Shown here: positions 23,609-62,746 of the stretch, one piece after another
How positions within the stretch are numbered: position 1 is the stretch's first letter
How the letters are laid out: every line of letters begins with the position of its first letter
Assembly: GCA_018263395.1 (NCBI GenBank)
Contig: JAANXF010000017.1
Span: 16,001-80,000 of the forward strand
Origin: Methanonatronarchaeales archaeon
Lineage (GTDB): Archaea > Halobacteriota > Methanonatronarchaeia > JAANXF01
Length of the DNA stretch: 64,000 nucleotides
Direction: 5' to 3'
Translations under genes and position numbers: made by a program
Notes under the pieces: generated by a model
Database searches by the model: none
What the model was told of the DNA's origin: nothing
The model's input: only the letters and a program-made list of their open reading frames with translations

Positions 23609-26600
23609 GTGGCCGAGGCGGGGGATTACGGCTCAGAGTCAATCCAGGTGCTGGAGGGTCTCGAGGCCGTAAGGAAGAGGCCCGGGATGTACATCGGCGG
23701 CACCGGGGCCAGGGGCCTGCACCACCTGGTCTACGAGGTGGTCGACAACTCGGTCGACGAGGCCATGGCGGACCACTGCTCCAGAATCCAGGTCTCCCTC
23801 CTCGAGGACAACGTGGTGGAGGTCAGCGACGACGGGCGCGGGATCCCGATAGAGGAGCACCCGGAGTACGGCGTCCCGGCCGTCGAGGTGGTCATGACGC
23901 GGCTGCACGCCGGCGGCAAGTTCGACCACAAGAGCTACAAGGTCAGCGGCGGCCTGCACGGCGTCGGGGTGTCCGTCGTCAACGCGCTAAGCGAGTGGCT
24001 CGTCGTGGAGGTCCGGAGGGACGGAAAGTTCTACAGGCAGAGGTTCGAGCGCGGGGTGCCCAGCAGGCCGGAGGTCGAGGAGGACTCCAGGGAAGAGGGG
24101 TCCGGGACCACGGTGAGGTTCAGGCCGGACCCCGAGCTCTTCGGGGATGGCAGGATCAGGTTCGACAGCCTCGTGGAGCGCATGAGGGAACTCGCCTTCC
24201 TGAACGAGGGCCTCAAGATCACGATAAGCTCCGGGGATGAGGAGAGGACGTTCAGGTACGAGGGGGGCATCTCCTCCTTCGTCGAGCACGTGAACCGGAA
24301 CCGCGACCCGCTGACCGGCGTCGTACACCTGGATGACGGGGACGAGGAGGTGCGGGTCGAGGCTGCTCTGCAGTGGACCTCGGAGTACGTCTCCTCGGTG
24401 TTCGCGTTCGCGAACAACATCAACACGCGGGAGGGCGGCACCCACCTGTCCGGGTTCAGGGGCGGCCTCACCCGCGCCGTGAACGAGTACGCGGAGAAGG
24501 AGGCCGGCGTCGAGGAGAGGTTCTCCGGTGACGACGTGAGGGAGGGCCTGACGGCCGTGATAAGCGTGATGATTCCGGAGCCCCAGTTCGAGGGCCAGAC
24601 CAAGACGAAGCTGGGCAACAGCGAGGTCAGGGGCGTGGTCGAGTCCATAGTCTACGACGGCGTCTCCAGGTTCCTGCAGGAGCACCCGACTGAGGCTGAC
24701 GGGATAGTGGAGAAGGCGCTCCACGCCCTTCGCGCGAGGAAGGCCGCCTCGGAGGCCAAGAAGCTGACGCGGCGAAAGAACGCCCTCAAGTCCACGCGGC
24801 TGCCGGGAAAGCTGGCGGACTGCTCCTCCAGGAAGCGCGAGGGCACGGAGCTCTTCATAGTGGAGGGGGACTCCGCCGGCGGCTCCGCGAAGCAGGCCCG
24901 GGACCGGGAGTTCCAGGCCATTCTTCCCCTGAAGGGCAAGATACTGAACGTGGAGAAGGCCCGGCTGGACAGGATTCTGAACAATGACGAGATAAGGAGC
25001 CTCATCACCGCCCTGGGGACCGGGATAGGCGACGAGTTCGACCTGGACGACGCCCGCTACTCCAAGGCAATCATAATGAGCGTCGATGGAGAGGAGCACG
25101 GCCTCGTGAGGGGTCCCGGGGGGGAGGCCCGCCTCGTCAGGATAGGGGAGTTCATTGATTCCGTGCTGGGTATGGACGGGGAGTTCGAGGGGTACGATGT
25201 CCTCTGCTTCGGCCTGGACGACCACGAGACCAGGTTCCGCCAGATAAACTACGTCGTTAGGCACGAGATTGAGGAGCCGCTCTACGAAATCGAGACGGCC
25301 TACGGGAGGAGCGTGAAGGTCACAGCCTCCCACAGCATCTTCGTGTACCGAGACGGCGAGGTGGAGCTCGCCAGAGGAGACGATATAAAGGAAGGAGACC
25401 TCGTTGTCGCCCCGAGAAACGTTCCTCTGCCGATGGAGCGCGAGGACGAAATCGATTTAGTCGAGGCCCTTATGGAAAGTGGGGCCTCCTGTTCCGAGGT
25501 ATTCCTTCAGGGCGGAGGCGCTGAGAACCTCCTGAAGAAAAAGGTCCTCGCCGAACACACCGGTACCGAGGCCGCGCGGAGGAGGGGGCGGGTCCCAAAA
25601 GAGGTTCTCCACAAGCTTAAGGCGGCGAGGGAGGAGGGGGGGCTCACCCAGTCGGACGTGTGCGAGGCTGTCGGCGTAAAGCAGCCCATAACGGTGTCTC
25701 ACTGGGAGGGGGGCATAAATCGACCCTCCCTCGAGAACTTCGAGGCCTACTGCGATGCAGTAGGAGTGCCCTTCGACGACGTGGCTAACGAGATAGAGGT
25801 CAAGTCCTCCCAGCTTGAAGAGAAGTGGAGCGGGGAGTACTCCGACTCCGGGCGGAACAGGGTCAGGTCCCGCGCCCGGCTGAGCGAACTAGAACCCGGG
25901 GATCTCGACCGCCTGCCCGATGACGCCGATGTCGAGCTGACGCCCGAGCACTACGCGGACCGGGGAATCGGAAGGTTCGTGAAGGTCGACGAGACCTTGA
26001 TGGAGCTGATGGGCTTCTACGTCGCCGAGGGAAGCTGCTCACCCCGTAACGGTATCCGGCTCTCGGTGGACGAGGAGCGACTAGTGGAGAAGTACCTCCA
26101 CGCGTTCCAGCACGTCTTCGGAATCGGGGCAAAGTTCTACGGCTACGAGGAGAGGACGGGTGAGGTCAAGCTCCTCAATCGCCCCGCGGCCATAGCGTGG
26201 AGAGAGGTACTCGAACTCGACGCCGAAACCTCATCCGAGAAGTCGATACCCGGCCTCGTGTTTAACGCTCGCCCCGAGGAGCGGAGGGCCTTCCTCCGCG
26301 GCCTCCTCGACGGAGACGGAACCGTGGCGGGAGACAGGGTAACGTGGTACACGGCCTCCCGCGGCCTCGCCAGCGGCCTGATGTACCTCCTCTCCTCCCT
26401 CGGAGTAACGGCCTCCCTGTCGGTCACGGATGCGGACGAGATTCCGGACGGCGAGATAAGGGGCGAACCCATCCGGACTGTCAGCGACCGGTACACCGTG
26501 ACGGTATCCGCAAGGTCGGACCTCGAAAGGATACGGGAGGTCTGGAGCGGCATCCCCGGTTCCGGGAGAATCAGGGAACGAGTCGATCGGGGATGGGACA

Positions 26601-27178
26601 ACGAGGCCAACCGGTCCTTCGAGGAGGTCAGCGACGACCTGTTCGCCCTCCCCGTCCGGTCGGTAAGGGAGGTGGAGCCGTCCGGGAGAAAGGTCTACGA
26701 CTTCTCCGTCGAGGAAGACGAGAACTTCGTCGCAGGAATCGGCGGCCTCTGCGCCCACAACACGGACGCCGACGAGGACGGGGCCCACATCGAGACGCTG
26801 CTCCTGACGTTCCTCTACCGGTATATGAAGCCCCTGATAGAGAGGGAAATGGTGTACCTCGCCAAGCCACCTCTCTACAGGGTGAGGAAGGGCGGCGGGG
26901 ACCACTACGTCTACACCGAGGGGGAAAAGGAGGAGCTGCTGGGAGAGATAGGGCGGCGCGGAGTATCGATGCAGCGCTACAAGGGCCTCGGCGAGATGTC
27001 GCCGAAGCAGCTCTGGGAAACGACGATGGACCCGGACAGCCGCGTCCTGCTACGGGTGGAGAACCCGGACGACGTGGAGGCCGACGAGCTCTTCACGACC
27101 CTGATGGGTAAGCACGTGGAGCCCCGCAGGGAGTTCATAAAGCGGCACGCGACGGAGGTGGAGAACCTTGACATCTGA
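23609..27178 (+). CDS. gyrB: DNA gyrase subunit B, interrupted in frame by an intein
   Basis: The GHKL N-terminus ([38 protein letters not shown]) is followed by Toprim ([14 protein letters not shown]). The sequence ...ARYSKAIIM / intein / [19 protein letters not shown] restores the canonical IIMTDADVDGAHI junction. Confidence 0.93.
25079..26761 (+). mobile_element. 561-aa intein with LAGLIDADG homing-endonuclease core and an embedded XRE-like HTH
   Basis: It starts with Ser (SVDGEE...), has block [12 protein letters not shown] and LAGLIDADG motifs [10 protein letters not shown] and [12 protein letters not shown], and ends ...[23 protein letters not shown] followed by Thr+1. An internal [29 protein letters not shown] resembles an HTH_3. 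Confidence 0.88.
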
Positions 27179-32695: not shown

Positions 32696-33739
32696 ATGGG
32701 TATCATGGGGAGAAAGTACCTCGTTGACATTCCGGCCCACCTGGCCCGCAGGACGGATGCCCTGATAGACTCCGGTGACTACGAGTCCGTCTCCGCGTTT
32801 GCACGTGCTGCCTTCGAGAACCAGCTCCTTCTCCACGCCTCAAATGAAGAAACAATTCTAGTCGATGATGCTCCGGATACCGGAACAGCTCCAACCCAAG
32901 AATCCGCTTCAGATGATGAGCAGGCGATTGATAGTTGGCGGGAGGCGCTGTCACTGTCCAAGCTAAACGCCGAAAGCGTGGAAACAGCCGAGGCCGAGCC
33001 GATAACCGACGGGCCGATATGGGGGCAGTTCAACAAGCTCCTCCCCATCAAGATAGGGGTGCGGGGTCTGGCGGTCCTCCAGTCGGATGAGGGCGGGCCG
33101 GTCCCACTCGAAGAATTCCGGAAAATCGTCGGTGAGCAGGCATCGCAGGTCCGCACACACCTAGGGAGGCTAGACGATGCGCAGGGCAGGCGCAGGGGCG
33201 AGAAGATGGCCGCCGGACTGCCGGACGGAAGCAGTGAGAAGTCCGTAAGGCGCTACCGCAACCACTTCCTAGGCTCCCTGGACAGCGACGGGGACATGCG
33301 GGGTGCGCTGGCCGAGATGGGATTTGTCAGGCTGTATGTGGACGGCGACGGGGAGATGGCATCCCTGACCGATGCGGGACTCGACTTTGCTGAGATCGCC
33401 AGCCCGGTTCTGGATGGGAAGGATGAGCCGACCATGACGCTCTCCGAGGATGAGAGGAAATTCCTGATTCGCCACATGGCCGAGAACATCCCGGGGGAGA
33501 TTGAGGGCATGAGGCAGATTCTGGACTGGATAGAGAATGGCCACAACACTCCTAACAAGTTAAATAAAAAGGTCGCAACAATGAATGAGGAATGGTCGGA
33601 AAAGATGGCTAAAACTATGAGAACGGGGCTACTCGGAAGGATGTACGACCTCAGGCTGGTCGAGAGGGAGTGGGAGGGGATACGGGTGACCTATTCATCC
33701 AAAGACCAAGAATCGCTCATTGCTTCCGGGGAGGTGTAG
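32696..33739 (+). CDS. Ribbon-helix-helix N-terminal domain protein with probable winged-helix C-terminal region; function unknown
   Basis: The N-terminus MGIMGRKYLVDIPAHLARRTDALIDSGDYESVSAFARAAFENQLL is a typical RHH/CopG beta-alpha-alpha pattern. An acidic linker and an unassigned roughly 250-aa region follow. I prefer the ATG at 32696 to the track start at 32567. Confidence 0.6.
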   Translation: MGIMGRKYLVDIPAHLARRTDALIDSGDYESVSAFARAAFENQLLLHASNEETILVDDAPDTGTAPTQESASDDEQAIDSWREALSLSKLNAESVETAEAEPITDGPIWGQFNKLLPIKIGVRGLAVLQSDEGGPVPLEEFRKIVGEQASQVRTHLGRLDDAQGRRRGEKMAAGLPDGSSEKSVRRYRNHFLGSLDSDGDMRGALAEMGFVRLYVDGDGEMASLTDAGLDFAEIASPVLDGKDEPTMTLSEDERKFLIRHMAENIPGEIEGMRQILDWIENGHNTPNKLNKKVATMNEEWSEKMAKTMRTGLLGRMYDLRLVEREWEGIRVTYSSKDQESLIASGEV

Positions 33740-33744
33740 CCATT

Positions 33745-35745
33745 ATGGAAGACAAGTTTGAGGCATATGAAAAGGGCTCTAGAGATACCACGGTTAACTG
33801 GGATAACACTCTGAAGGGGATTAAGGATAGCTATGACCAGCACAGGGGTCTTGTCCATGGCATCCAGAAAGATGCAATCCAAAACGGGTGGGATGCCCGC
33901 ATTAATAGAGAGCAGGGAACTGGTTGGAAGTTTACATTCGAGCTCGTTAGGGATGGGGATGATGCGCTCTTTGTGATGAGGGATGAGGGCACGACTGGTC
34001 TTACTGGCAGAATCTTAGAAGAGGAGGAATACACCGAAGAGCTGCCACCGGGGGAGCGATGGGCGCGATTTGAGAGCCTAGCGTTTATAAAGGAGGAGGC
34101 TGGAGGATCGCTTGGATCAAGAGGGCAGGGAAAATTCATATTTGTTGCTGGTTCGGGCAATAAGACAATAGTTTATGATACCTATCGTGAGGACGGCACG
34201 TACCGAGCAGGGATGCGTAGAGTTAAAAAAACAAGATCTCCTGTGGTAGCTTGGGACGGTGAAGAGGGAAGGGAGAAGTTCGACGATCTTACCGGAAACC
34301 TCCTTGAGCCGTTTCAGTCGGTTGGAACCCGTGTTGTCATAGTTGATCCGGTGGATGAGCTCTTAGAGTCTGTTGAATCAGGAGGTTTTCTCCGATATGT
34401 TGGGGAAACTTGGTGGGAGATTATTCTAAAATACGATGCAACAATCGAGCTAGTTGTTGATGGTGAGACATTTACTGCTACTATACCTGAGGAATTCAAC
34501 CTCGTTGAGGAGGATACCGACAATCTTCGATGTTGGACTAGGGAGTTCGAAATGGTTGAGGACGAGTACAAGATTAAAAAGCTCCACATAATCAGTTCCA
34601 ATGACGATGTACCAAATGATTTAAATGGAATTTCGATTCAACGGGGTGGGATGAAGGTTGATGTGATTGAGCCAAAATACCTTCCCAGAGATATCTCAAA
34701 AAGTATCTATGGCTACATCACTGTCGATGATGATGTTGAAGATGAGCTGAAGCGAGCTGAGAATCTGACACATTACGGCTTCAGTTATCGCTATAAAGCG
34801 CCCAAAGCAATCAGGAATTACGTTGAAAAACAGTGCGAGAAATTTGCCCAAGAGAAGCTCGGGTGGCAGAGCTCTAGGCAGGCTGTAAGGGCCAGAAGGC
34901 AGAGAAACGCTGAGAGGATGGCACTAAGGCAGATAAACAGAATAGCGGAGGAGTTCGATTTCCCCTCCACGCCCGGGATGGGTGGTGATTCAGGAGGATC
35001 AGGGGGAACAGGTGGAAACGGGGGCGGCGGTGGCAGTCCAAAACCGCTTCGTATTTGGATGCCTGACTTGAAGCTGCCTCGTGAGGACGATTTGAGGGTA
35101 GATTATGGTGAAAGCGTTGGCGACATCCAAGCCAAAGCAATAAATGAAAGCGCTGACCCTCTTGAGGTTAAGCTAAAAATTTACATCCGCAAGAATGATG
35201 AACTCAAAAGAGTCTATTTGAACGAGGAGCTCTGGCTCTCCTCCGGAACAAGTAGTGATAGCTATGGACCTTTTGAACAGCACTTTGAGGAGGAAGAATT
35301 TGATCCTGGAAGATACACGGTAGTTGCACGTCTAATCTTATTGAGTGATGAGGACTTTGGGGGTGTCCTTGACGAGAAAAGAAAGTCTTTTTATCTAGAA
35401 GAAGAGCCACCCTCAGGTGGAGGAATTTTCGAAGATTGCGAAGCCGTCGAATTCGATACAACATCTCGGCTGATGGGCTGGGTAACCGGGGGCGATGAGG
35501 GGGGTTATCGTCTTCAGTACAATGTCCTTCACCCAGCGTATAAAGACGTTTGGGAGAGCGAGGAAGACCTAGCGGAATACCTATTTCGCATTATGGCCCT
35601 CGAACTTTATCGAGTGGACCTTGAACGTGGGGAGCCGGTCATTTTTACGGATTTGGGAGGGGAAGTATCACCAGGGGAAATTGCGTATGAAATAGTCGAA
35701 GAACTTAGTGAATTCACGTATCAATACCATGCGGGTGAGGGGTAA
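33745..35745 (+). CDS. GHKL (Bergerat-fold, MORC/HATPase_c_3-like) ATPase with Gly-rich linker and beta-rich C-terminal region
   Basis: The Bergerat motifs are readable. N-box: GIQKDAIQNGWDA. G1: VMRDEGTTGLTG. G2: GGSLGSRGQGKFIF. Motif IV-like: VGTRVVIVD. These are followed by GGDSGGSGGTGGNGGGGGS and a roughly 250-aa tail. GGAGGTG lies 9 nt upstream of the ATG at 33745. Confidence 0.7.
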   Translation: MEDKFEAYEKGSRDTTVNWDNTLKGIKDSYDQHRGLVHGIQKDAIQNGWDARINREQGTGWKFTFELVRDGDDALFVMRDEGTTGLTGRILEEEEYTEELPPGERWARFESLAFIKEEAGGSLGSRGQGKFIFVAGSGNKTIVYDTYREDGTYRAGMRRVKKTRSPVVAWDGEEGREKFDDLTGNLLEPFQSVGTRVVIVDPVDELLESVESGGFLRYVGETWWEIILKYDATIELVVDGETFTATIPEEFNLVEEDTDNLRCWTREFEMVEDEYKIKKLHIISSNDDVPNDLNGISIQRGGMKVDVIEPKYLPRDISKSIYGYITVDDDVEDELKRAENLTHYGFSYRYKAPKAIRNYVEKQCEKFAQEKLGWQSSRQAVRARRQRNAERMALRQINRIAEEFDFPSTPGMGGDSGGSGGTGGNGGGGGSPKPLRIWMPDLKLPREDDLRVDYGESVGDIQAKAINESADPLEVKLKIYIRKNDELKRVYLNEELWLSSGTSSDSYGPFEQHFEEEEFDPGRYTVVARLILLSDEDFGGVLDEKRKSFYLEEEPPSGGGIFEDCEAVEFDTTSRLMGWVTGGDEGGYRLQYNVLHPAYKDVWESEEDLAEYLFRIMALELYRVDLERGEPVIFTDLGGEVSPGEIAYEIVEELSEFTYQYHAGEG

Positions 35746-36405
35746 ATGGCGGTTATAATCCGAGAGACTCGAGAAATAGCCGGTAAAAGAAGTGAGGTTA
35801 AGATATACAGGACAGATGGCCTTCTGACAAGGGAGGAGAAACAAAGGGCCGAGGAACTCGACGACCTGATTCAAAGGGAGATGAGTGCTATAGTCGAAGA
35901 CCTAAAAGAAAAGTCCTTAATAACAGGAGAAGGGGAGAAAAAGAATTTGGAAATTTGGTACAAAATCGGGGGGGGTCTACAGTTCATAGATCAAACAGAT
36001 TTAATCGAAGATCGAGACAGAAAGTACATATGGAGGGCTATTTACGACCATTCCGGCCCCCTCCATACGGGGGATATACCAGTAAGGGCAGATCGCCCTA
36101 AAAACAACGATTTCAGATATGCATATTTACTTGCTAAAAACTTCGATTGGGAATTCGTTGAATCAGGTGGAACATGGACTACTTGGGGTGAATTTTTTGA
36201 CTCGCCAGTTATACGTAATGACCAACGAATCATCGACTGGTTGGGAACTGTCAAAGAGAGGAGAGGGGACCAAGGTCTACAGGATTGGATACGGCCACTT
36301 ACGGTAGAAATTCGAAGAGAACTTAAAAATGTGGATACCGGTGTATTCGAAAAAGCAAGATTAGTAGAGAGGCTAGAACGTATCTATAATTCGATCAAAG
36401 GGTAG
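35746..36405 (+). CDS. Hypothetical 219-aa protein, translationally abutting the GHKL ATPase gene
   Basis: Its ATG immediately follows the upstream TAA (taaATG). I can recognise no catalytic motif. It is Trp-rich and helical-looking (EIWYKIGGGL, TWTTWGEFF, IIDWL). Confidence 0.55.
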   Translation: MAVIIRETREIAGKRSEVKIYRTDGLLTREEKQRAEELDDLIQREMSAIVEDLKEKSLITGEGEKKNLEIWYKIGGGLQFIDQTDLIEDRDRKYIWRAIYDHSGPLHTGDIPVRADRPKNNDFRYAYLLAKNFDWEFVESGGTWTTWGEFFDSPVIRNDQRIIDWLGTVKERRGDQGLQDWIRPLTVEIRRELKNVDTGVFEKARLVERLERIYNSIKG

Positions 36406-36413
36406 TATTCGGA

Positions 36414-37031
36414 CTAATTGGCGTAAATACATGCTTTATTTAGGGTGCAGTTATTGCAATCGGGATTAGGCCTGCAATATACTGCAGGGAAATCCAGTAA
36501 CGCCAGATTATAAGTTCGATAGTCTGAGTTTGGTAGTAACTTCTGTGCCTTTTTAGCAATTTTTTTCTGATCCGATATCCCAAAATACCTAGAAATCAGA
36601 CGCCTCACATTGGTATCAAGGATTGGAAATCTCCTATTTGCAGCAAAGCAAGCTGTCGCGTTTGCGATGTAGTCTCCGAGCTCATCTATCCCTTTGAGCT
36701 CCTCCGGGTTCGTTGGTGTATTTCCACCGTATTTTTCCCCCACCTCCTCGACGGTCTCGTGCATCATCTTGAGTCGACGATTCACAAGTCCCAGGGTTTC
36801 CAGAATCTCCCTTAGGTCGTCCTCGTTGGCCCGGCTGAGGTCCTCCATCGTGGGATACCTTTTAATGAATTCATTGTAAACCCCCTCAACCTGATCGGCC
36901 CGTGTTCGCCTCAACATGATTTCGGCCATCAGAACCCGGTATGGGTCATCCGTGGCACGCCAGGGATAGCTTCTCAGGTTCTCCTCGGCGAACTCCAGCA
37001 GCGTGTTTACGAAGAACTCCTCTTCCTTCAT
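36414..37031 (-). CDS. HhH-GPD superfamily DNA glycosylase (MutY/Nth/Mig-like) with 4Fe-4S loop
   Basis: It has YPWRATDDPYRVLMAEIMLRRTRADQV, an HhH region, the catalytic-Asp segment PILDTNVRRLISRYFG and the C-terminal Cys cluster CRPNPDCNNCTLNKAC. It overlaps the methyltransferase stop by 4 bp. Confidence 0.8.
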   Translation of the reverse strand: MKEEEFFVNTLLEFAEENLRSYPWRATDDPYRVLMAEIMLRRTRADQVEGVYNEFIKRYPTMEDLSRANEDDLREILETLGLVNRRLKMMHETVEEVGEKYGGNTPTNPEELKGIDELGDYIANATACFAANRRFPILDTNVRRLISRYFGISDQKKIAKKAQKLLPNSDYRTYNLALLDFPAVYCRPNPDCNNCTLNKACIYAN

Positions 37032-38407
37032 TGGGCCTCGACGGAGGCCGGAACGCTCTGCTTGGAAACCGGCTCGACTTGGGCGCCCGCGAACTTTCTG
37101 AGAAGCGACTCGGCCATCCTTTTAGCGAGGAGCGGCGGCACGGCGTTCCCGATCTGCCCGTACTGGGCGGTTCTGGGGCCGCTGAATCTGTAGTCGTCCG
37201 GGAAGGACTGAATGCGGGCTGCCTCCCTCACTGTGAACGTTCTTGCCTGCTTATCATCTGGGTGTATGAAGCGGTTGCCGTCCTTTGCGAGATGAGCGAA
37301 GATGGTTGTGCTGGGCGCATTCCAGCTCTGCTTTCGGTACTTGTCCTTGAAGGAGCTCATGTCGTACTTTATACAATTCCTGATGTCCTGCTCATAATCA
37401 CCCTCAACCACGTCCTTCGCAGTGTGCCCCTGTTTCATGGCCCGGTACAGTCGCTGGTCCCTTCGCATATGGCTCCGAGCGATGTGGTCTGTGAGGTGCT
37501 CGGGGATATCCGGTACAACGAAATCCAAGAACTCTTGGCCCGTTTCATCAAGGTTCCTGTAGTGACTGAAGAAGCAATCCTTGTGATACTCGACCTGCTT
37601 CTCACCGTTGCGCCTACCCTCGTTAATCTTTCTGACTTTATCCCTCTCATCGTCGGGGATATCTGTAAATGTGTACTTTGCCTCCAACTCGGGAAGGTCA
37701 CCAATTGTGTCCCAGAGGGTGACTTGGGGCTTCTTCCCGTCTCCGTGCGTCCTTTCCGGGAAGGGGTTTTTGATGGACTGGTTATTTCCTATCAGGAAGA
37801 TTCTACGCCTGTTCTGGGGCACACCGTAGTCGGCGGCGTTGAGCTTGAGGTACGTATCTTGGATGAGCTTATCCTGTCTTTCGTTCTCGAAAGTGTACCC
37901 GATGCTCTCAAGGTCCTGACGAATTATCTGGACGTACGGGGTGCCGTCCTCACCCTTCTTTGATGCCAGCCCGAGAACGTTTTCAAAAACTATGAAGCTC
38001 GGGCTGAGGGTTTTTACTAGGTCGATGTAGGCCATATACAGGTCATCACGCGAATCGTTTTCAAATTTTGAGTTCCCGACGCCGTACCCGGAGCGTGGGC
38101 CGATTAGGGAGAACGACTGACACGGGGGACCACCGATGATAACATCTACCTGACCGTTACATAGGTCGAGAATCTCCTTTTTGGTATCCTCATCGTTGAG
38201 GTCCCCCAAGATTACCCTGTTGGGGTCCTTGTCTCTCTCTTTAAAGTGGGAACGCAGTGTCTGACAGGCGTATTCATTTTTATCCACAGCACACACGGTC
38301 TCGAACGAGTAACCGTCAATCTCGTCTGCAAGCTCGAAGCCGAGGTAAAAACCCCCTCCTCCTGCGAAGAGGTCTAACACTCCGAGCTTCTCGGACATCC
38401 CGTCCAA
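37028..38407 (-). CDS. dcm: DNA (cytosine-5)-methyltransferase
   Basis: All signature motifs are present: I LDLFAGGGGF, IV GGPPCQSFS, VI FVFENVLG, VIII QNRRRIFLIG, IX REAARIQSFPDDY and X GNAVPPLLA. There is a long variable (TRD) region between VIII and IX. Confidence 0.93.
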   Translation of the reverse strand: MDGMSEKLGVLDLFAGGGGFYLGFELADEIDGYSFETVCAVDKNEYACQTLRSHFKERDKDPNRVILGDLNDEDTKKEILDLCNGQVDVIIGGPPCQSFSLIGPRSGYGVGNSKFENDSRDDLYMAYIDLVKTLSPSFIVFENVLGLASKKGEDGTPYVQIIRQDLESIGYTFENERQDKLIQDTYLKLNAADYGVPQNRRRIFLIGNNQSIKNPFPERTHGDGKKPQVTLWDTIGDLPELEAKYTFTDIPDDERDKVRKINEGRRNGEKQVEYHKDCFFSHYRNLDETGQEFLDFVVPDIPEHLTDHIARSHMRRDQRLYRAMKQGHTAKDVVEGDYEQDIRNCIKYDMSSFKDKYRKQSWNAPSTTIFAHLAKDGNRFIHPDDKQARTFTVREAARIQSFPDDYRFSGPRTAQYGQIGNAVPPLLAKRMAESLLRKFAGAQVEPVSKQSVPASVEAQ

Positions 38408-39926: not shown

Positions 39927-40181
39927 ATGGCGAAGATGAGGTCGGTGCAGGTCCGGTTTCCGGAGGAGGAGCTGAGGCGCATCGACAGGTACGTGGAGAG
40001 GGGAGAGTACCCCTCGCGGTCGGAGTTCATCAGGGACGCCGTTCGTAAGGCGGAGGCCATCCGTTCCATCGGGACCATGAGGCGCCTCGTCGAGGATGAG
40101 GGCCTGACCGAGCAGGAGCTGGTCGAGGGTGGAATGGAGGTCCGGGAGGAGCTGTTCAGAGAGCTCGTCGGGGACGGGTGA
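39927..40181 (+). CDS. Ribbon-helix-helix (CopG-like) antitoxin
   Basis: SVQVRFPEEELRRIDRYVERGEYPSRSEFIRDAVRKA is a classic RHH. It lies directly upstream of a PIN gene. Confidence 0.8.
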   Translation: MAKMRSVQVRFPEEELRRIDRYVERGEYPSRSEFIRDAVRKAEAIRSIGTMRRLVEDEGLTEQELVEGGMEVREELFRELVGDG

Positions 40182-40182
40182 C

Positions 40183-40589
40183 GTGAAGGTCCTGCTGGAT
40201 TCCTCGACGCTCTACTCCGCTATCGCCTACGACGGAAACGAGAGCGACCTGCTGAAGGCTGTCATCGAGAGGCACCAGCCGGTCATCTCCGACTACGTCC
40301 TCGAAGAGCTGCGGAGGAACTTCTCCCGGAAGCTCTCGGGCCACCGCAGGGACGAGGTCCTGCCGAACTGGAAACCCTCGCCTCCGCCTGCGAGGTCAGG
40401 GAGATGGCCGAGTACTCGGGAAATATCGATGAAGCGAGGTCGATTATAAGCGACAAGGACTCACCGGTCCTCGCGTGCGCCATGCTTCCCGAAGTAGACC
40501 TGCTTATCACCAGCGACGCAGAGTTCGGAGAGGCGGAGCACCCCGACGTGAGGGTAGCCTTCCCGGATGGTGCGTGGGAAGCGATATAG
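40183..40589 (+). pseudogene. vapC: PIN-domain (VapC-like) toxin with an apparent 1-nt deletion
   Basis: The N-terminal frame reads (V)KVLLDSSTLYSAIAY...VISDYVLEELRRNF...RRDEVL. The C-terminal frame reads AELETLASACEV...DKDSPVLACAMLPEVDLLITSDAEF. The switch is near 40358-40365. The span is 407 nt, which is 3n-1. Confidence 0.7.
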
Positions 40590-58896: not shown

Positions 58897-61095
58897 TCAG
58901 GTACTTTGGGACCGCTGAATTAATAGACGTTGGATGTATCTCGTGACTTTTGTATGGGATAGGGAGAACTCGTCGAATTCTGAGTATTCGGATTTGGCGG
59001 CTTCAAACTTCTCTGCCGAGTAAAATTTTCCTTCTCTGAGCTTTTCCAAATAGTCCGAACCAAGGGGAGCAAGGAATTCATTAATAAACCAATTTTTTTC
59101 GACCGCTACGATAACGTTGTCTCTCACACTGTTTAAGTAATAGTCATCGATTAGGAAGCAGACTAGGGGGAGTTGTATACGGAGGTCCTGAATGATTGCA
59201 TCAACTTCCTGCTCATGGATTTGTTCATGCTCCAATTGGTTGATGATGGGCTTTATGGAATTCTTAAATGGTTCCCTTGCTTTAACAAAGAGTCTCGGTC
59301 TGTCCTTGGACCTAAGCACTGACCACAGGACGAACTTCCACAATGCCATCCATCGGTTAAAGGATCTTTCGAGGGCGAGTTCCGGACTCTCCTCGGAAGT
59401 CGCAGCCTTTTCAAGTTCTCTAGTAATTTTTTTGATGGCGTTCTCCCGAATCTCTTCCCACTCTGGAGTCTCTAGTGGCTTTGGGGTTTCCTCCTCACTA
59501 TCCTCTCCAGGTCCCCGGACGGGAGAGGAAGGGGGGGCGTCGGAATCTGAATCTTGGTAATCGAGTTTGGTAAAATCGAAATTGCTCAGGAAATGAGAGA
59601 GAGCCAAGCGGTCTTTCGGCCGTTCACCGTACATCTCCAAAACTTCGATGATGCCGTCACGCCACTCTGTTCGCTCCCCCTCTCTGATGGTCCTTCGAGG
59701 CGGCAACCCTGATATTCTATCCTTCGAGAGCCAACGCCAACGCGTTTTGATCGCCTCCTTTCCCGGAGTTACAAACTCGAGACGTACCTGCGTCGGTTCC
59801 GAACAGAATTCGACGCCTCCCTCGTCTAGTTCGGAGACAAACTCGTCATCTTCCTGGCGGGCGAGGTACTTCGAATCCTCATCCTTTTTCTTAGGGTGGG
59901 TTAACTGAACGTTTACTTGCGTATCTGGTCCCGGAGGTCCCTTATCCTTTAATTTAACCCTAATCTGTTTCTCTTTTAAAAGAGCCTCTTGTATATTAAT
60001 CTCTCCTCGAATTTCCGCATCTGGAAATTTTGGGTAGGAATATGCGATGCTCTTGAGGTCGATTTTTTCTATGGTGAACGAGTCAGAGGAAATGAGGTGG
60101 TCGAATCCGTCTCTGCCTAGGGCCTTCCTGAGAATGGCGGTCTCAATATTTCCTTCTCCTCCAGCGGTTAGGAGTGCAGCTCTTGTTAGGTTAGGGCTGC
60201 CGTACAAGCAGTAGGAATGCTGATGTCCTTTTAGGATAAGCGCCTTTCCGTGGATGAATCGAGTGGGCTCTTCGCTGAAATTGATTTCTCGAAGCCCTAC
60301 TTTGCATCCAGTCTCCTCAAGTTCGGGAATAGCTTCATGAGGAAAACCTCGGACCTTCTCGGGCTGGATATATAGCTGAAAAGAGGAGCACCCAGCTTCG
60401 GCCAACATTTTAAGAGGCTCTCCCTTCTCGTCCCAGAATGGGGAGATGATGTGGGCTTCCTCAATCTCCTCCTCAATTATATCTAGGATGTTGGGGAGTA
60501 TGGGGGATTGGAGGTTGTGGAGGAAACGGAGTGCGTCGGTGCCTGCTTGCCCTTCAACCGCTTCCAAGACCTCCTCGTGAGCTTTCCGCAGAACTTCCTG
60601 ATGGCGTTGAGAAGAAACCAATTCAGTTTTAATAATCTCATCTATAAAAGATGCTACGCCACGAATGGCGCTGATCTCCTCAGGAGTTGATTCGTGATGA
60701 CCAAATTCAAAAGAGTCCGCTATCTCTCCATTTTTGTCCCATCCTCTGTTTGTCAGATTGAAACTGCCGAAAAGCACTTTCACGTATCCGGGCCCCGAAA
60801 GGAGACAGACCTTCGGATGAAAAGTTCCACTGGTTGGGACGTAATCTAGATAGTATCGATGGCCAAGATGGTTCGTATCTGTAGATCTTTGGTATTCTGA
60901 TATATCGGTGAGAACTAGGGTTTCGCGCACCCCCAAAGAGGAGAGGGTTTTGAGAGCTACATTTTCGAAAAACGCTGGGTCGAAATTGAAGGTAAGGAAG
61001 ATGGCGTAGTCCGCTTCGTCGATTCCTCTAAGGTTTTTGCGGAGATTCTGTTCCGGCTTTCCTCGCTCGCCCAACTTGTTAGCCGCCGTTGACAA
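58897..61095 (-). CDS. Two-HKD phospholipase-D-family (nuclease-like) protein with long unassigned C-terminal region
   Basis: There are two HKD-type motifs: TFHPKVCLLSGPGYVKVLFGSFNLTNRGW and FIHGKALILKGHQHSYCLYGSPNLTRAAL. About 400 further residues include an acidic Ser/Pro/Glu linker and a helical tail. It sits on lower-GC DNA, and its TTG start overlaps the upstream gene by 17 nt. Confidence 0.7.
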   Translation of the reverse strand: MSTAANKLGERGKPEQNLRKNLRGIDEADYAIFLTFNFDPAFFENVALKTLSSLGVRETLVLTDISEYQRSTDTNHLGHRYYLDYVPTSGTFHPKVCLLSGPGYVKVLFGSFNLTNRGWDKNGEIADSFEFGHHESTPEEISAIRGVASFIDEIIKTELVSSQRHQEVLRKAHEEVLEAVEGQAGTDALRFLHNLQSPILPNILDIIEEEIEEAHIISPFWDEKGEPLKMLAEAGCSSFQLYIQPEKVRGFPHEAIPELEETGCKVGLREINFSEEPTRFIHGKALILKGHQHSYCLYGSPNLTRAALLTAGGEGNIETAILRKALGRDGFDHLISSDSFTIEKIDLKSIAYSYPKFPDAEIRGEINIQEALLKEKQIRVKLKDKGPPGPDTQVNVQLTHPKKKDEDSKYLARQEDDEFVSELDEGGVEFCSEPTQVRLEFVTPGKEAIKTRWRWLSKDRISGLPPRRTIREGERTEWRDGIIEVLEMYGERPKDRLALSHFLSNFDFTKLDYQDSDSDAPPSSPVRGPGEDSEEETPKPLETPEWEEIRENAIKKITRELEKAATSEESPELALERSFNRWMALWKFVLWSVLRSKDRPRLFVKAREPFKNSIKPIINQLEHEQIHEQEVDAIIQDLRIQLPLVCFLIDDYYLNSVRDNVIVAVEKNWFINEFLAPLGSDYLEKLREGKFYSAEKFEAAKSEYSEFDEFSLSHTKVTRYIQRLLIQRSQST

Positions 61096-62746
61096 ATTTA
61101 TCTAGAATCTTCAGCCCGTCTTGGGTGGGGGATATACTTGTGTCACCTAAGGTGGCTAGGCCTAGATCTCGGAGGGTTGATTTGGAACTGTTGAGTCTTG
61201 TCGTGCGGTGCCCCGCGTCGTGATCACGCTTCATGACATATCCGTCCTCCCCTCTACTGAAGTAGGTGGGGATATTTGGTTTGCTTAATGCAATGTTTCT
61301 GGCCTCGCGGATTACGTATTCATTGAAGAAATCACGTGCAAACTCCTCGACAGTAAGGCGCTGATTCAATACCTCTTGGTGGAGGTAGTCAACAAAGCGA
61401 ACGATGCTCAAATCGTTATTGGCGTGGTTTTGTATCCAGGCCCATGAGGATGAACGTGTTTCTTTGAGGCGAAAGTTCCTCATGTACAGGGTGAGGAGTA
61501 GGACAATCCAGACTGAGCCGATTTTCTCTTGGTTACGATTATTGGCCATAGCCGCTTCGAGTTCCTCCACCAGCTTCACTTCATTTAAGTGATGATCCAG
61601 CCCAACTCGCCGATCAAATTCTCGACTGGGCTCTCTGTAGGGCTCTCCCCACGACGTTTCTGTTATACTTTGCGACGTTGACTCTACGAGATAGCTAAGG
61701 TTGGTGGTTTCTGGTGAATCGATATCTTCCGTGATTGATTCGATTAATGAGAGAGAGTCTCTGGTGATATCGCTTACGAAATCGTCAGGATTATTTGTTC
61801 CTCCACCCTCAATTTCTGAAAGAAACGACGATAGAAGGCATTCTAGACAATAAGTAAAGAAATCGTTGGCCGTAAAGATGCTCCATCTTTCAACAATTTC
61901 GTTTAGCTCCTCAGGTATGGCTATGCTTTGGTACGTATCCCCGGTCGGTATCGCCCTCAGATAAGAGGCGCTACGAAAAGTGGATGTATCCAAGGGCGTT
62001 CCGAGTTGGCCTACCCTTTCGGCAAGAAAGAGGATATACAGCAGGGACTGTTTGCGGAAGATGTGCCGCTTGTCGCTAGAACTGGACCTATCCCTCAGGA
62101 AAATTTCCCTCAGCGCTTCTCGTTCCGGCGCATCCTCGTCACCCAACCGGCAGAGGCAAACAGATTTTCCGGCTTCTAAGAGTCCTCGTTTAGTTGCTGT
62201 GCTCTTTTTAGATATGGCTTTAAGCCCGGCTTTAGTTGCAACTTTGTCGAAGAGCGAAGCAATCTCTTTACCCCGGTCGGTAGGCTTGTCGTATTTGTCG
62301 CCTTCAGTAATACGGAGCAACCCGATGGTATGGGTGGGACCCCGGTAATCTTGGGTGTAGCCTCCTCCTAGACTCGATAGAAATCTGAAATCGAGGTCTA
62401 CCGTGTCTTCCCCTTCCTCCCAGGTCCTGCTTCCCTTAATCTCTCCCTCCATCGCCCGATGGTCTTCTGAGCCATTCTCAGCGCGGTGGGCAATACACGA
62501 AAGGAGGTAGGCCCTCTCCAGCTCATAGATTCCATCACGCAAATCGTTCCAATCTTCGATGTCATCCTCTTTGTCGAGCTCGTGGGCACACCACGTGTAG
62601 AACGAGTAATATCGAGCTCTTTGTGAAGTAGTGGTAATTCCGTGAAGAAGGTCAGCTACTAACCTATCCGAGGCTCTGTTTGCCCCCAAGGGTTCTCTTG
62701 CTCCCTGCTCTTCTGTCTGAGCCGTCCAGAAAGGCCTACTTCCCAT
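61079..62746 (-). CDS. Hypothetical 555-aa protein, operon partner of the PLD-family protein
   Basis: It is a long ATG-initiated ORF on lower-GC DNA with non-repetitive, protein-like composition (e.g. GITTTSQRARYYSFYTWC, ELERAYLLSCIAHRA). I recognise no family or catalytic motif. Confidence 0.6.
   Translation of the reverse strand: MGSRPFWTAQTEEQGAREPLGANRASDRLVADLLHGITTTSQRARYYSFYTWCAHELDKEDDIEDWNDLRDGIYELERAYLLSCIAHRAENGSEDHRAMEGEIKGSRTWEEGEDTVDLDFRFLSSLGGGYTQDYRGPTHTIGLLRITEGDKYDKPTDRGKEIASLFDKVATKAGLKAISKKSTATKRGLLEAGKSVCLCRLGDEDAPEREALREIFLRDRSSSSDKRHIFRKQSLLYILFLAERVGQLGTPLDTSTFRSASYLRAIPTGDTYQSIAIPEELNEIVERWSIFTANDFFTYCLECLLSSFLSEIEGGGTNNPDDFVSDITRDSLSLIESITEDIDSPETTNLSYLVESTSQSITETSWGEPYREPSREFDRRVGLDHHLNEVKLVEELEAAMANNRNQEKIGSVWIVLLLTLYMRNFRLKETRSSSWAWIQNHANNDLSIVRFVDYLHQEVLNQRLTVEEFARDFFNEYVIREARNIALSKPNIPTYFSRGEDGYVMKRDHDAGHRTTRLNSSKSTLRDLGLATLGDTSISPTQDGLKILDKFVNGG

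What the first reader, a model, noticed from the sequence alone, without database searches (positions are those of the whole stretch)
32696..38407. Compact low-GC five-gene cassette: RHH/wHTH protein + MORC-like GHKL ATPase + small unknown protein, convergent with C5-methyltransferase + mismatch glycosylase
What the sequence shows:
- Three plus-strand genes are tightly coupled, with a 5-nt gap and then taaATG abutment.
- They meet a minus-strand dcm-glycosylase pair (4-bp overlap) with only 8 nt between the convergent stops.
- The whole block is visibly lower in GC than the backbone and is embedded in a toxin-antitoxin array.
- The 666-aa protein has all four Bergerat ATP-binding motifs (DAIQNGWDA, DEGTTGL, GSRGQGK, GTRVVIVD).
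- I can find no nuclease, helicase or kinase motif in it or its two partners.

Established knowledge: prokaryotic MORC/paraMORC GHKL ATPases are known to sit in restriction-modification-like operons next to DNA methylases.

Inference: this is a methylation-linked defence or epigenetic module. Its effector component is not one of the usual nucleases, and its DNA-recognition subunit may be the RHH + winged-helix protein. I do not recognise this gene combination as any named defence system.
Basis: partly seen in the sequence, partly recalled or inferred. Interest (0 to 1): 0.85.

Follow-up and report, generated by a model that had tools for sequence, protein, structure and literature searches.

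The report
Methylase-linked paraMORC-like ATPase defence cassette
An archaeal genomic island carries an unannotated ATPase and partner protein that across many phyla travel with a cytosine DNA methylase and its mismatch-repair enzyme, so it is probably a restriction-like defence module with no recognisable nuclease.

Summary
Five genes sit at the stated coordinates with the stated junctions, in a low-GC island between gyrA and top6B of a Methanonatronarchaeales MAG, flanked by toxin-antitoxin pairs.

D and E are an ordinary Dcm plus Mig-type T:G glycosylase pair.

B (666 aa) has no Pfam, NCBIfam, PADLOC or PDB sequence hit. Its AlphaFold model is a GHKL plus S5-transducer ATPase resembling Hsp90, MORC and GyrB. 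C (219 aa) gives a confident model with no PDB match.

B-C is the conserved core:
- They are adjacent in 40 of 41 complete loci from more than 15 phyla, all MAGs, and co-evolve (rho 0.87).
- A Dcm lies within 4 kb in 21 of 41 loci. All but a truncated contig and one with only a faint Vsr-like fragment carry a Mig or Vsr enzyme.
- The methylase has been swapped between near-identical B-C pairs.

A is optional.

Verdict: real. It is an uncharacterised minimal branch of the paraMORC-type, methylase-linked restriction-like systems predicted in 2008. This is a new variant of a known kind. Its mechanism and its defence role are inferred, not shown.

The parts
32696..33739 (+). Gene A, 347 aa. It has an N-terminal ribbon-helix-helix-like segment, an acidic linker and two winged-helix-like regions. 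It is an optional upstream DNA-binding partner or regulator.
   Evidence: ORF; NCBI MBS1263804.1 is annotated as hypothetical. There is no Pfam hit. Only sub-threshold matches exist, and all are to wHTH proteins: MepR, YgaV, STN1, PaaX and Penicillinase_R. The RHH assignment is by sequence pattern only. Homologues lie directly upstream of B in L007, L010, L015, L022, L023, L039, L044 and L045. A 70%-identical homologue sits upstream of a different GHKL module in L054.
33745..35745 (+). Gene B, 666 aa. A divergent GHKL plus S5-transducer ATPase (paraMORC2-like) with a long helix, a Gly-rich linker, a beta-sandwich and a C-terminal helical bundle.
   Evidence: AF2 model with pLDDT 82. Foldseek against PDB matches Hsp90, MORC2/3, TRAP1, GyrB and Top6B at E 7.5e-10 to 1e-6. 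There are 441 homologues, all about 665 aa and all hypothetical. hhalign against the sister GHKL family gives probability 97.6% and E 4.8e-12.
33832..34434 (+). B residues about 30-230: the Bergerat ATP-binding domain. Motif I is QKDAIQNGWDA, with Asp43 in place of the usual Glu. Motif II is DEGTTGLTG. It also has a disordered ATP lid, motif III GSRGQGK and motif IV GTRVVIV.
   Evidence: The motif columns are invariant. Secondary structure and the low-pLDDT lid (residues 115-125) are.
34441..34785 (+). B residues about 233-347: the S5-like transducer domain. It contains the invariant GMK304 loop, a candidate gamma-phosphate lysine. It also contains the E339-x3-H343 motif (nt 34759-34773), with His343 invariant.
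   Evidence: The ExxxH motif aligns with the invariant E440-P-P-x-H444 of the sister family.
35047..35742 (+). B residues 435-666: an unassigned beta-sandwich plus helical bundle carrying the invariant N593/H596 motif (YNxxHPAY). It is preceded by a disordered Gly-rich linker (residues 405-431, nt 34957-35037).
   Evidence: No profile or PDB sequence match was found. The motif resembles LNxDHPxI of the G3 protein of the sister module only weakly (hhalign E 0.41).
35746..36405 (+). Gene C, 219 aa. The obligate partner of B: an N-terminal beta-hairpin plus a Trp-rich helical domain with a fold that has no known match.
   Evidence: AF2 pLDDT 86.7 and pTM 0.83. The best Foldseek PDB match has E 1.3. 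There is no Pfam hit in 32 members. The family has 234 representatives among 1.84 billion; all 150 listed are under 275 aa, with no room for a fused domain. C is adjacent to B in 40 of 41 loci and co-evolves with B at rho 0.87. Invariant residues are D39, W71, W96, W144, W147, D159 and R161.
36414..37031 (-). Gene D, 205 aa. A Mig-type HhH-GPD T:G (and U:G) mismatch DNA glycosylase with a C-terminal Cys cluster.
   Evidence: PF00730 at 3.6e-17. PADLOC/REBASE-type 'Type II nicking endonuclease' at 1.3e-39. The best PDB match is 1KEA (Mig.MthI) at E 3.3e-39 over the full length. NCBI names it 'G/T mismatches repair enzyme'.
37028..38407 (-). Gene E, 459 aa. A C5-cytosine DNA methyltransferase (Dcm family) with a TTG start and a 4-bp overlap with D.
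   Evidence: PF00145 at 1.6e-65 and TIGR00675 at 1.4e-56. It matches M.HaeIII and M.HhaI in the PDB. The motifs PPCQSFS, ENV, QNRRR and GNAVPP are visible in the translation. NCBI names it 'Modification methylase MthTI'.

Best explanation
The cassette is a restriction-modification-like, methylation-keyed defence or addiction module built around a paraMORC-type ATPase.

**Shown or directly supported**
- B is a GHKL plus S5 ATPase with every ATP-binding motif conserved.
- C is its co-evolving, translationally coupled partner.
- The pair is recurrently joined to a C5-methyltransferase plus a T:G mismatch enzyme.
- Methylase lineages and repair-enzyme types are exchangeable.
- B-C is exchangeable in place with a homologous GHKL-G3-DUF6339 module, while A, Mig and Dcm stay.

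**Inferred mechanism**
- B dimerises on ATP, as other GHKL proteins do, and with C forms an ATP-gated clamp on DNA.
- Dcm marks the host genome with 5-methylcytosine, which keeps the B-C complex off self DNA. This could work by direct read-out of the mark or by using the methylase as the specificity subunit.
- Unmethylated incoming DNA is clamped. It is then either cut, by a cryptic site such as the family-specific ExxxH motif or by a recruited host nuclease, or blocked for replication and transcription.
- Mig (Vsr in other loci) only repairs the T:G mismatches that 5mC deamination creates.
- A (RHH plus winged helices) acts as a controller-type regulator or as a DNA-targeting adaptor. In other loci the small protein S, an Mrr_N protein or a sigma-r4/alpha-CTD protein fills that position.
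For: **B is a GHKL plus S5 ATPase**
- The AF2 model and Foldseek matches support this.
- The motifs are invariant.

**B and C form a unit**
- The TAA-ATG junction abuts.
- They are adjacent in 40 of 41 loci.
- Mantel rho is 0.87.

**Linkage to Dcm**
- 21 of 41 complete loci have a Dcm within 4 kb. Fifteen of these have a Mig-type enzyme and four a Vsr; L044 has only a faint Vsr-like fragment and L018 is truncated.
- Overlapping B-C-Dcm-Mig operons occur in Dehalococcoidia, Chloroflexi, Atribacteria, Aminicenantes and LCP-89, and in four further metagenome contexts. Convergent arrangements occur in the window, L006, L007 and L008.
- Across loci, B versus Dcm gives Mantel rho 0.51, p 0.007.
- In L006 versus L008, B is 82% identical but Dcm only 25%. 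The dependence is therefore on a C5-methyltransferase in general, not on one enzyme.

**In-place module swap**
- L054 is syntenic with the window from gyrA to top6B at about 74% nucleotide identity.
- It keeps A (70% aa identity), Mig and Dcm, but has GHKL-G3-DUF6339 instead of B-C.
- The GC3 pattern fits this history: B and C 0.41-0.47, against A and E about 0.70.

**The trait runs through the superfamily**
- The sister GHKL family is homologous to B (hhalign 97.6%).
- It is linked to Dcm in 20 of 42 and 28 of 38 loci, to Mig in 20 of 42 and to Vsr in 16 of 38.

**Defence-island neighbours**
- The window has toxin-antitoxin arrays.
- Other loci have ThsB-TIR, an AspBHI-like type IV enzyme, a FokI-like enzyme, SLFN_AlbA_2, HepT/MNT, DUF3800, AAA_15 and integrases.
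- The sister module lies next to AbiGI/GII on Lactococcus plasmid pS127.

**Precedents**
- AbiR is toxic without the M.LlaKR2I methylase (PMC13064643).
- The GHKL-nuclease VcSduA (paraMORC3/Shedu) needs its ATPase for defence (PMC12137116).
Against: - No nuclease or other effector domain is detectable in A, B or C, and no experiment exists for any member.
- About half of the B-C loci have no methylase nearby. These are the 28-32%-identity clade in sponge-symbiont and other Proteobacteria. There B-C sits between housekeeping genes such as hisD, guaA and an acyl-CoA dehydrogenase. That is hard to reconcile with a toxic restriction activity that needs a linked methylase.
- In L010 and L015 a FokI-like endonuclease already lies between Dcm and Mig, so B-C need not be the restriction component there.
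- Motif I has Asp instead of the catalytic Glu, so ATP turnover may be slow or regulatory.
- The B C-terminal domain and C were not compared with AlphaFold DB, so a cryptic known fold cannot be excluded.
- One context (L051/L052, between mutS and uvrC/ogt) points to repair rather than defence.
Confidence: 0.5

Rival explanations
1. B-C is a MutL-like accessory for repair of deaminated 5-methylcytosine. The GHKL clamp would coordinate or stimulate the Mig glycosylase (or Vsr) and downstream steps. The cassette would then be a self-contained methylation-plus-repair unit rather than a defence system.
For: - Fifteen Dcm-linked B-C loci carry a Mig-type enzyme and four a Vsr; L044 has only a faint Vsr-like fragment and L018 is truncated.
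- In L051/L052 the B-C-Dcm-Mig operon lies between mutS and uvrC/ogt, and L047 lies next to a DNA_alkylation repair gene.
- From established knowledge, discussed in PMC2292703: E. coli MutL, a GHKL plus S5 protein, stimulates Vsr. From my own knowledge: human MLH1 binds the HhH-GPD T:G glycosylase MBD4.
Against: - Dcm-Vsr and Dcm-Mig pairs work without such partners in many genomes.
- B-C occurs without Dcm, Mig or Vsr in half of the loci.
- No MutL_C or DNA_mis_repair signature is present.
Confidence: 0.13
2. B-C (with A) is a nuclease-free, MORC-style DNA-compaction or silencing machine, or a modification-dependent (type IV-like) sensor. It would read cytosine-methylation state and silence or exclude foreign DNA, or regulate the island itself, without cutting.
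For: - No nuclease is detectable.
- The architecture is that of a clamp: GHKL, then S5, a long helix, a flexible linker and a C-terminal helical bundle.
- Structural neighbours include MORC2 and MORC3.
- In L028 the upstream partner carries an Mrr_N domain, the modified-DNA-binding module of Mrr.
- The stand-alone B-C clade tolerates the absence of a linked methylase.
Against: - An operon that both makes 5mC and attacks 5mC would be self-defeating unless the specificities differ.
- The MORC-specific S5 motif is absent.
- Related GHKL modules do pair with PD-(D/E)xK nucleases.
Confidence: 0.17
3. There is no functional link. A-B-C and Dcm-Mig are two independent modules that merely share defence islands, and B-C has some unrelated ATP-dependent role.
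For: - B-C is found alone in about half of the loci.
- In L010 and L015, Dcm, a FokI-like endonuclease and Mig already form a complete restriction-modification unit next to A-B-C.
Against: - Overlapping or under-20-nt junctions between C and Dcm are seen in at least 10 independent operons.
- The association persists through inversion, methylase replacement, a Mig-to-Vsr switch and replacement of B-C by a homologous module.
- The same linkage is seen across the sister family, in 48 of 80 loci.
Confidence: 0.08

Closest known systems
paraMORC (especially paraMORC2) and MORC ATPases of restriction-modification operons (Iyer, Abhiman and Aravind 2008, PMC2292703)
   Same: - The ATPase has the GHKL plus S5 architecture with intact ATP motifs.
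- An ExxxH motif follows the S5 domain.
- The distribution is sporadic across Bacteria and Archaea and is driven by lateral transfer.
- The genes are linked to DCM methylases and T:G repair endonucleases.
   Different: - B is not detected by HATPase_c or HATPase_c_3 profiles.
- It lacks the MORC S5 signature.
- It has Asp for Glu in motif I.
- It carries its own beta-sandwich plus helical C-terminal domain.
- It pairs with a novel-fold protein C instead of a helicase and nuclease.
- The repair enzyme here is a Mig glycosylase rather than Vsr.
- All B family members found are from MAGs, so they were not available in 2008.
- Direct homology to a reference paraMORC2 sequence could not be tested.
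Mza (mzaABCDE) anti-phage system
GHKL-G3-DUF6339 three-gene modules (uncharacterised; haloarchaeal, cyanobacterial, Deinococcus and Lactococcus plasmids)
   Same: - The GHKL is homologous (hhalign 97.6%).
- The small protein S and the A protein are shared as upstream partners.
- Dcm plus Mig or Vsr linkage is the same.
- The module occupies exactly the place of B-C in the syntenic locus L054.
   Different: - It has three genes rather than two.
- C is not detectably related to DUF6339 (hhalign E 0.07, probability 0.8%).
- The middle protein G3 is absent here, with at most a weak motif echo in the C-terminal domain of B.
- These modules are themselves annotated only as hypothetical or DUF6339.
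Shedu type I-D / paraMORC3 (VcSduA, PMC12137116)
   Same: An N-terminal GHKL ATPase with a clamp-like middle domain is required for anti-phage defence.
   Different: VcSduA is a single protein with a C-terminal DUF4263 PD-(D/E)xK nuclease and has no methylase dependence. B has no such domain.
M.MthTI / Mig.MthI of Methanothermobacter plasmid pFV1, and Dcm-Vsr pairs
   Same: D is a close homologue of Mig.MthI (1KEA, E 3e-39). E is a Dcm-family methylase that NCBI names after M.MthTI. The overlapping methylase and repair genes counteract 5mC deamination.
   Different: By my recollection, the pFV1 system has a classical type II endonuclease. Here no endonuclease is recognisable and the neighbouring genes are A-B-C.
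Lactococcal AbiR with M.LlaKR2I (PMC13064643)
   Same: It is a multi-gene defence whose toxicity to the host is neutralised by the methylase of a neighbouring restriction-modification system (C5 type by my recollection). It shows how a methylase-keyed, non-classical restriction module can work.
   Different: The proteins are unrelated: sigma70-like, ParB-like and nuclease-Snf2.

Membership tests
GHKL (Bergerat-fold) ATPase superfamily | The four ATP-binding motifs (N-box ExxxNxxD, G1 DxGxG, G2 GxxGxG, G3 GT) in the right order on the right secondary-structure elements. | tested here: met
   D43xxxN47xxDA lies in helix 35-50. D80..G85LTG88 follows the beta-hairpin. The lid (residues 115-125) is disordered. 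G124SRGQGK130 lies at the helix N-terminus. G194TR lies in strand 194-200. All are invariant in 34 sequences. The one deviation is Asp in place of the catalytic Glu.
GHKL (Bergerat-fold) ATPase superfamily | Fold similarity to solved GHKL plus transducer structures. | tested here: met
   Foldseek against PDB gives Hsp90, MORC3, MORC2, TRAP1, GRP94, GyrB, Top6B and Topo II ATPase. E-values are 7.5e-10 to 1e-5, probability 1.00, over 350-500 aligned columns.
GHKL (Bergerat-fold) ATPase superfamily | Match to sequence profiles (Pfam HATPase_c or HATPase_c_3, or PDB sequences). | tested here: not met
   No hit at E up to 1 for B or at E up to 0.1 for 29 relatives. The family profile finds nothing in the PDB. 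hhalign against single GHKL sequences (Top6B, an L005 HATPase_c_3 protein) is negative.
MORC family proper | The GhXhhpXXRhl signature in the S5 domain (PMC2292703). | tested here: not met
   The equivalent segment in B is G295-I-S/A-I-Q-R-G-G-M-K-V/I. The Arg position holds Met303, with Lys304 one residue later.
paraMORC2 (Iyer 2008) | GHKL plus S5 with a strongly conserved ExxxH motif at the C-terminal end of S5. | tested here: met
   E339-N-L-T-H343 in the window, with consensus EGxEH. His343 is invariant. The Glu is replaced (NQxPNH) in the distant stand-alone clade. The motif aligns with the invariant E440PPxH444 of the sister family.
paraMORC2 (Iyer 2008) | Demonstrable homology to a reference paraMORC2 sequence. 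| not testable with these tools
   No reference sequence or profile of paraMORC2 was available. The taxon pattern of the sister family (cyanobacteria, Lactococcus, archaea) fits the published description but does not prove identity.
paraMORC / MORC restriction-modification operons | Conserved neighbourhood with DNA methylase and Vsr-type repair genes. | tested here: met
   A Dcm lies in 21 of 41 B-C loci, with Mig in 15 and Vsr in 4. In the sister family Dcm is present in 48 of 80 loci.
Shedu / paraMORC3 | A DUF4263 PD-(D/E)xK nuclease domain. | tested here: not met
   No Pfam or PADLOC hit.
MutL | DNA_mis_repair transducer and MutL_C dimerisation/endonuclease domains. | tested here: not met
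   No Pfam or NCBIfam hit. MutL is not among the top 50 Foldseek matches.
DUF6339 (for protein C) | Match to PF19866 or to a DUF6339 family profile. | tested here: not met
   There is no Pfam hit in 32 C-family members. hhalign of A2 against A5 gives probability 0.8% and E 0.07. Only the position in the operon and the size are equivalent.
Ribbon-helix-helix / winged-helix DNA-binding proteins (for protein A) | Profile match to RHH and wHTH families. | tested here: inconclusive
   No RHH profile hit was found. The C-terminal two-thirds give only sub-threshold hits, but all are to wHTH proteins: MepR at E 0.11, YgaV at 0.19, PaaX at 0.0097 and Penicillinase_R at 0.011.
Type II restriction-modification with T:G repair (Dcm + Mig/Vsr + endonuclease) | A C5-methyltransferase with catalytic motifs IV, VI, VIII and X. 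| tested here: met
   PF00145 at 1.6e-65. The motifs PPCQSFS, ENV, QNRRR and GNAVPP are present.
Type II restriction-modification with T:G repair (Dcm + Mig/Vsr + endonuclease) | A T:G mismatch enzyme adjacent to the methylase. | tested here: met
   D matches 1KEA (Mig.MthI) at 3.3e-39 and overlaps E by 4 bp.
Type II restriction-modification with T:G repair (Dcm + Mig/Vsr + endonuclease) | A recognisable restriction endonuclease. | tested here: not met
   None is present in the cassette. A FokI-cleavage-domain protein is present only in L010 and L015.

The most novel reading that the evidence does not exclude
B-C is a nuclease-free, ATP-gated DNA clamp that recognises DNA lacking the host's 5-methylcytosine mark and silences or excludes it by entrapment or compaction. 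That would make it a prokaryotic counterpart, and possibly an evolutionary antecedent, of eukaryotic MORC-mediated silencing linked to DNA methylation. Protein C would be a new fold that reads or relays methylation state.
Probability: 0.15. Interest if true: 0.85.

Novelty: new variant of a known kind. Interest (0 to 1): 0.6.

Why it matters

This family is the most stripped-down version seen here: one GHKL ATPase, one small novel-fold partner, a methylase and its repair enzyme, and no nuclease or helicase. It is widespread in uncultured Bacteria and Archaea and is invisible to Pfam, NCBIfam and PADLOC.

Two natural experiments support a real functional dependence on cytosine methylation:
- the in-place swap with a homologous three-gene module in a sister genome
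- the exchange of methylases between near-identical B-C pairs

These features make it a compact, tractable system for asking what a paraMORC actually does to DNA and how methylation gates it. The related module on Lactococcus and haloarchaeal plasmids offers cultured entry points.

Tried and rejected
**Searches that found nothing**
- Sequence-profile detection of the GHKL domain failed with Pfam, NCBIfam, PDB phmmer/hmmsearch and hhalign against the window's own Top6B and an L005 HATPase_c_3 protein. The assignment rests on structure and motifs.
- B gave no tblastn hit in cultured plasmid or phage collections.
- The first metagenome scan, with the single L054 GHKL protein, found nothing. The rescan with an alignment worked.
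- PDB profile searches with the sister GHKL, G3, C and DUF6339 alignments gave nothing.
- No att-like direct repeats bound the island.

**Homologies considered and rejected**
- HEPN for C. There is an R97x4H102 pattern, and paraMORC-HEPN fusions are a precedent (PMC3710099). I rejected it because there is no Pfam or Foldseek HEPN match and H102 falls below 80% across the wider family.
- C as DUF6339: not supported.
- C or the C-terminal domain of B as G3: not supported beyond a short motif.
- A related to the Mrr_N protein of L028: not detected.
- AbiR as the identity of the Lactococcus relative: rejected, because AbiR proteins are sigma70-, ParB- and Snf2-like.

- One Foldseek job went on the viral library. 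It returned rIIA, Hsp90 and topoisomerase hits, which is consistent with the assignment but adds little. That left none for the C-terminal domain of B or for A.

Full report
**Observation.** The five ORFs exist exactly as described.
- A is 32696-33739 (+), B is 33745-35745 (+) and C is 35746-36405 (+).
- D is 36414-37031 (-) and E is 37028-38407 (-).
- The junctions are TAG-CCATT-ATG, TAA-ATG, an 8-nt spacer between the convergent stops, and an ATGA overlap between D and E.
- The block is compositionally foreign. GC is 0.505, against 0.64-0.67 for the flanking gyrA and top6B.
- GC3 is 0.41-0.47 for B and C, 0.56 for D and about 0.70 for A and E. It is 0.87-0.89 for the housekeeping genes.
- The flanks are toxin-antitoxin pairs. 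Upstream there are three nucleotidyltransferase genes, two with Pfam-confirmed HEPN partners. Downstream there is a DUF2283 pair and an RHH plus frameshifted PIN.
- The window is from a Methanonatronarchaeales MAG. NCBI calls A, B and C hypothetical, D a 'G/T mismatches repair enzyme' and E 'Modification methylase MthTI'.

**The minus-strand pair is ordinary.**
- E is a Dcm-family C5-methyltransferase (PF00145 at 1.6e-65, TIGR00675) with the canonical motifs.
- D is a full-length homologue of the Mig.MthI T:G mismatch glycosylase (PDB 1KEA, E 3.3e-39).
- D also matches the REBASE-derived 'Type II nicking endonuclease' model in PADLOC.
- Such pairs counteract 5mC deamination.

**Protein B.**
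- There is no hit in Pfam, NCBIfam or PADLOC. There is none in 29 relatives and none in PDB sequences, even with a family profile.
- A template-free AlphaFold model built from 30 homologues is good (pLDDT 82).
- Its first roughly 400 residues match Hsp90, MORC3/MORC2, TRAP1, GRP94, GyrB, Top6B and Topo II ATPase regions by Foldseek (E 7.5e-10 to 1e-5, probability 1.00).
- The four Bergerat motifs are invariant in 34 family members and lie on the expected elements. The catalytic Glu is replaced by an invariant Asp43.
- An S5-type transducer follows, with an invariant GMK304 loop and an E339xxxH343 motif.
- After that come a long helix, a disordered Gly-rich linker, a beta-sandwich and a helical bundle carrying an invariant YNxxHP motif.
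- The MORC-specific S5 signature of Iyer et al. is not met. The ExxxH motif is the signature they give for paraMORC2.

**Protein C.**
- The model is confident (pLDDT 86.7, pTM 0.83) but has no PDB structural match (best E 1.3).
- It has no Pfam hit in 32 members and no PDB profile hit.
- An exhaustive HMMER search of 1.84 billion representatives finds only 234 relatives. None of the 150 listed exceeds 274 aa, so no fused domain is apparent.
- Invariant residues are mostly tryptophans, plus D39, D159 and R161. This does not look like a classical active site.

**Protein A.**
- It has an RHH-like N-terminus (by pattern only), an acidic linker and two regions whose only, sub-threshold, matches are winged-helix proteins.
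- Its assignment as a DNA-binding protein is plausible but not proven.

**Conservation of the neighbourhood.**
- A scan of GTDB species representatives gave 41 true loci, all MAGs, from more than 15 phyla including Asgard archaea. Six metagenome look-ups added six independent contexts.
- B and C are adjacent in 40 of 41 complete loci, and their pairwise identities correlate at rho 0.87.
- A Dcm lies within 4 kb in 21 of 41 loci. Fifteen of those have a Mig-type glycosylase and four a Vsr; L044 has only a faint Vsr-like fragment and L018 is truncated.
- In many bacterial phyla the four genes form an overlapping B-C-Dcm-Mig operon. In the window, L006, L007 and L008 the Dcm pair is convergent.
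- B and Dcm identities correlate only moderately (rho 0.51, p 0.007). In L006 versus L008, B is 82% identical but Dcm only 25%. The methylase has therefore been replaced under a constant B-C.
- The upstream position varies. A is present in about 9 loci. A conserved 75-aa helical protein, here called S, is present in about 9. An Mrr_N/RHH-like protein is present in L028, and a sigma-r4/alpha-CTD protein in L019. Some loci have nothing.
- A distant clade (28-32% identity, mostly sponge-symbiont Proteobacteria) has B-C alone among housekeeping genes.

**The sister-locus swap.**
- The closest homologue of A (70% identity) lies in a contig, L054, that is syntenic with the window from gyrA through the toxin-antitoxin genes to top6B, at about 74% nucleotide identity.
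- A, Mig and Dcm are retained there. Between them, instead of B-C, lie four genes: a GHKL protein split in two (304 and 330 aa), a 346-aa protein (G3) and a DUF6339 protein.
- Using an alignment of that GHKL with B N-termini as the query, a metagenome scan returned 80 loci.
- In these the GHKL is a single protein of about 630 aa, followed by G3 and DUF6339.
- Dcm is present in 48 of 80 loci, Mig in 22 and Vsr in 16. The small protein S is present in 7.
- Profile-profile comparison shows B is homologous to this GHKL family (probability 97.6%, E 4.8e-12, 258 columns). The match runs through the shared ExxxH motif.
- C is not detectably related to DUF6339 or to G3.
- The sister module occurs on plasmids of cultured Halorussus, Halobacterium, Halomicrobium, Halobaculum, Haloplanus, Synechococcus, Deinococcus and Lactococcus. 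In Lactococcus it lies next to AbiGI/GII. It is always annotated as hypothetical or DUF6339.

**Interpretation.**
- Methylation linkage survives inversion, methylase replacement, a Mig-to-Vsr switch and replacement of B-C by a homologous module. This argues for a real functional dependence of these GHKL modules on a C5-methyltransferase.
- Other features fit a restriction-like defence or addiction module in which Dcm provides the self mark. These are the position of B-C where a restriction gene would sit, the upstream regulator or adaptor position, mobility, low GC and defence-island neighbours.
- There are also precedents: Mza, the GHKL-nuclease VcSduA (PMC12137116) and AbiR, whose toxicity is neutralised by a methylase (PMC13064643).
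- What B-C does to DNA is unknown. No nuclease is detectable. The family-specific ExxxH motif and the C-terminal YNxxHP motif are the only candidate catalytic or interaction sites.
- The stand-alone clade and the L010/L015 loci, which already have a FokI-like endonuclease, weaken the simple view that B-C is the restriction enzyme.
- Three rivals remain open:
  - a MutL-like helper of T:G repair, supported by the constant Mig/Vsr presence and the mutS/uvrC context of L051
  - a nuclease-free MORC-like clamp or silencer
  - mere co-location

**Novelty.**
- The general class, paraMORC ATPases in DCM/Vsr-containing restriction-modification-like operons, was described computationally in 2008. One relative, Mza, has been validated.
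- This B-C family is new in several respects. It is unannotated in every library tried and is confined to uncultured organisms. It is reduced to two genes plus the methylase pair, and its partner protein has an unmatched fold.
- I therefore rate it a new variant of a known kind, of moderate to high interest, mainly as a minimal model for what paraMORCs do.

Noticed in passing
window 23609-27178 (+): gyrB encodes a 1189-aa protein interrupted by an intein. The insert carries a LAGLIDADG homing-endonuclease domain and an HTH_3 domain, and sits between the Toprim domain and the GyrB C-terminal domain.
   Followed up: partly
window 58897-62746 (-): This is a second low-GC island (GC about 0.48 against 0.65). 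It holds a 732-aa PLD-like (PLDc_2) protein overlapping a 555-aa protein with no Pfam hit, and lies between an MMPL transporter and an MFS transporter. It may be another horizontally acquired nuclease-type defence pair.
   Followed up: partly
window 3347-4099 (+) and 4492-4851 (-): This is a third low-GC patch (GC 0.47). It encodes a thymidylate kinase, with a stand-alone nucleotidyltransferase (MNT-type) gene nearby.
   Followed up: no
window 39927-40589 (+): An RHH antitoxin gene is followed by a PIN-like toxin gene that appears frameshifted into two ORFs (40129-40449 and 40404-40589). It is probably a decaying VapBC pair.
   Followed up: partly
L054 5507-9130 compared with window 33745-36405: In a sister Methanonatronarchaeia contig, B-C is replaced in place by GHKL(304+330)-G3-DUF6339, while A, Mig, Dcm and the gyrA/top6B flanks are conserved at about 74% nucleotide identity. 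The GHKL there is split into two ORFs, unlike in about 80 relatives.
   Followed up: yes
L002, L004, L005, L012, L017, L020, L021, L024, L049, and L082, L093, L096, L102, L107, L126, L127: A conserved helical protein of about 75 aa ('S', consensus F.RLA.KRTN.VL..LR.LGNCSN...Y.YT.EEV..IF) has no Pfam hit. It precedes both the B-C type and the GHKL-G3-DUF6339 type modules, as an alternative to A.
   Followed up: partly
L051 / L052 4330-13691: In one bacterial lineage the B-C-Dcm-Mig operon is inserted between mutS and uvrC, followed by an O-methyltransferase, ogt and an integrase. This is a DNA-repair context rather than a defence island.
   Followed up: no
L093 2418-10598: At least two GHKL-type modules lie in tandem: a DUF6339 gene with an S-like ORF, then 638/335/252-aa genes, then GHKL-G3-242 aa. 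A Mig gene and a Dcm gene follow downstream. This suggests duplication or stacking of these systems.
   Followed up: no
L005 12001-13659: A second GHKL protein, this one canonical (HATPase_c_3 at 3.6e-21, 552 aa), is inserted between the Dcm and Mig genes of a B-C-Dcm-Mig operon. Two different paraMORC-like ATPases therefore sit in one operon.
   Followed up: no
L015 10791-12077 (-) and L010 / L015 upstream: A 5mC-dependent AspBHI-like type IV endonuclease (RE_AspBHI_N plus Mrr_cat) lies convergent to the A-B-C genes, in a locus that also encodes a Dcm and a FokI-cleavage-domain protein.
   Followed up: no
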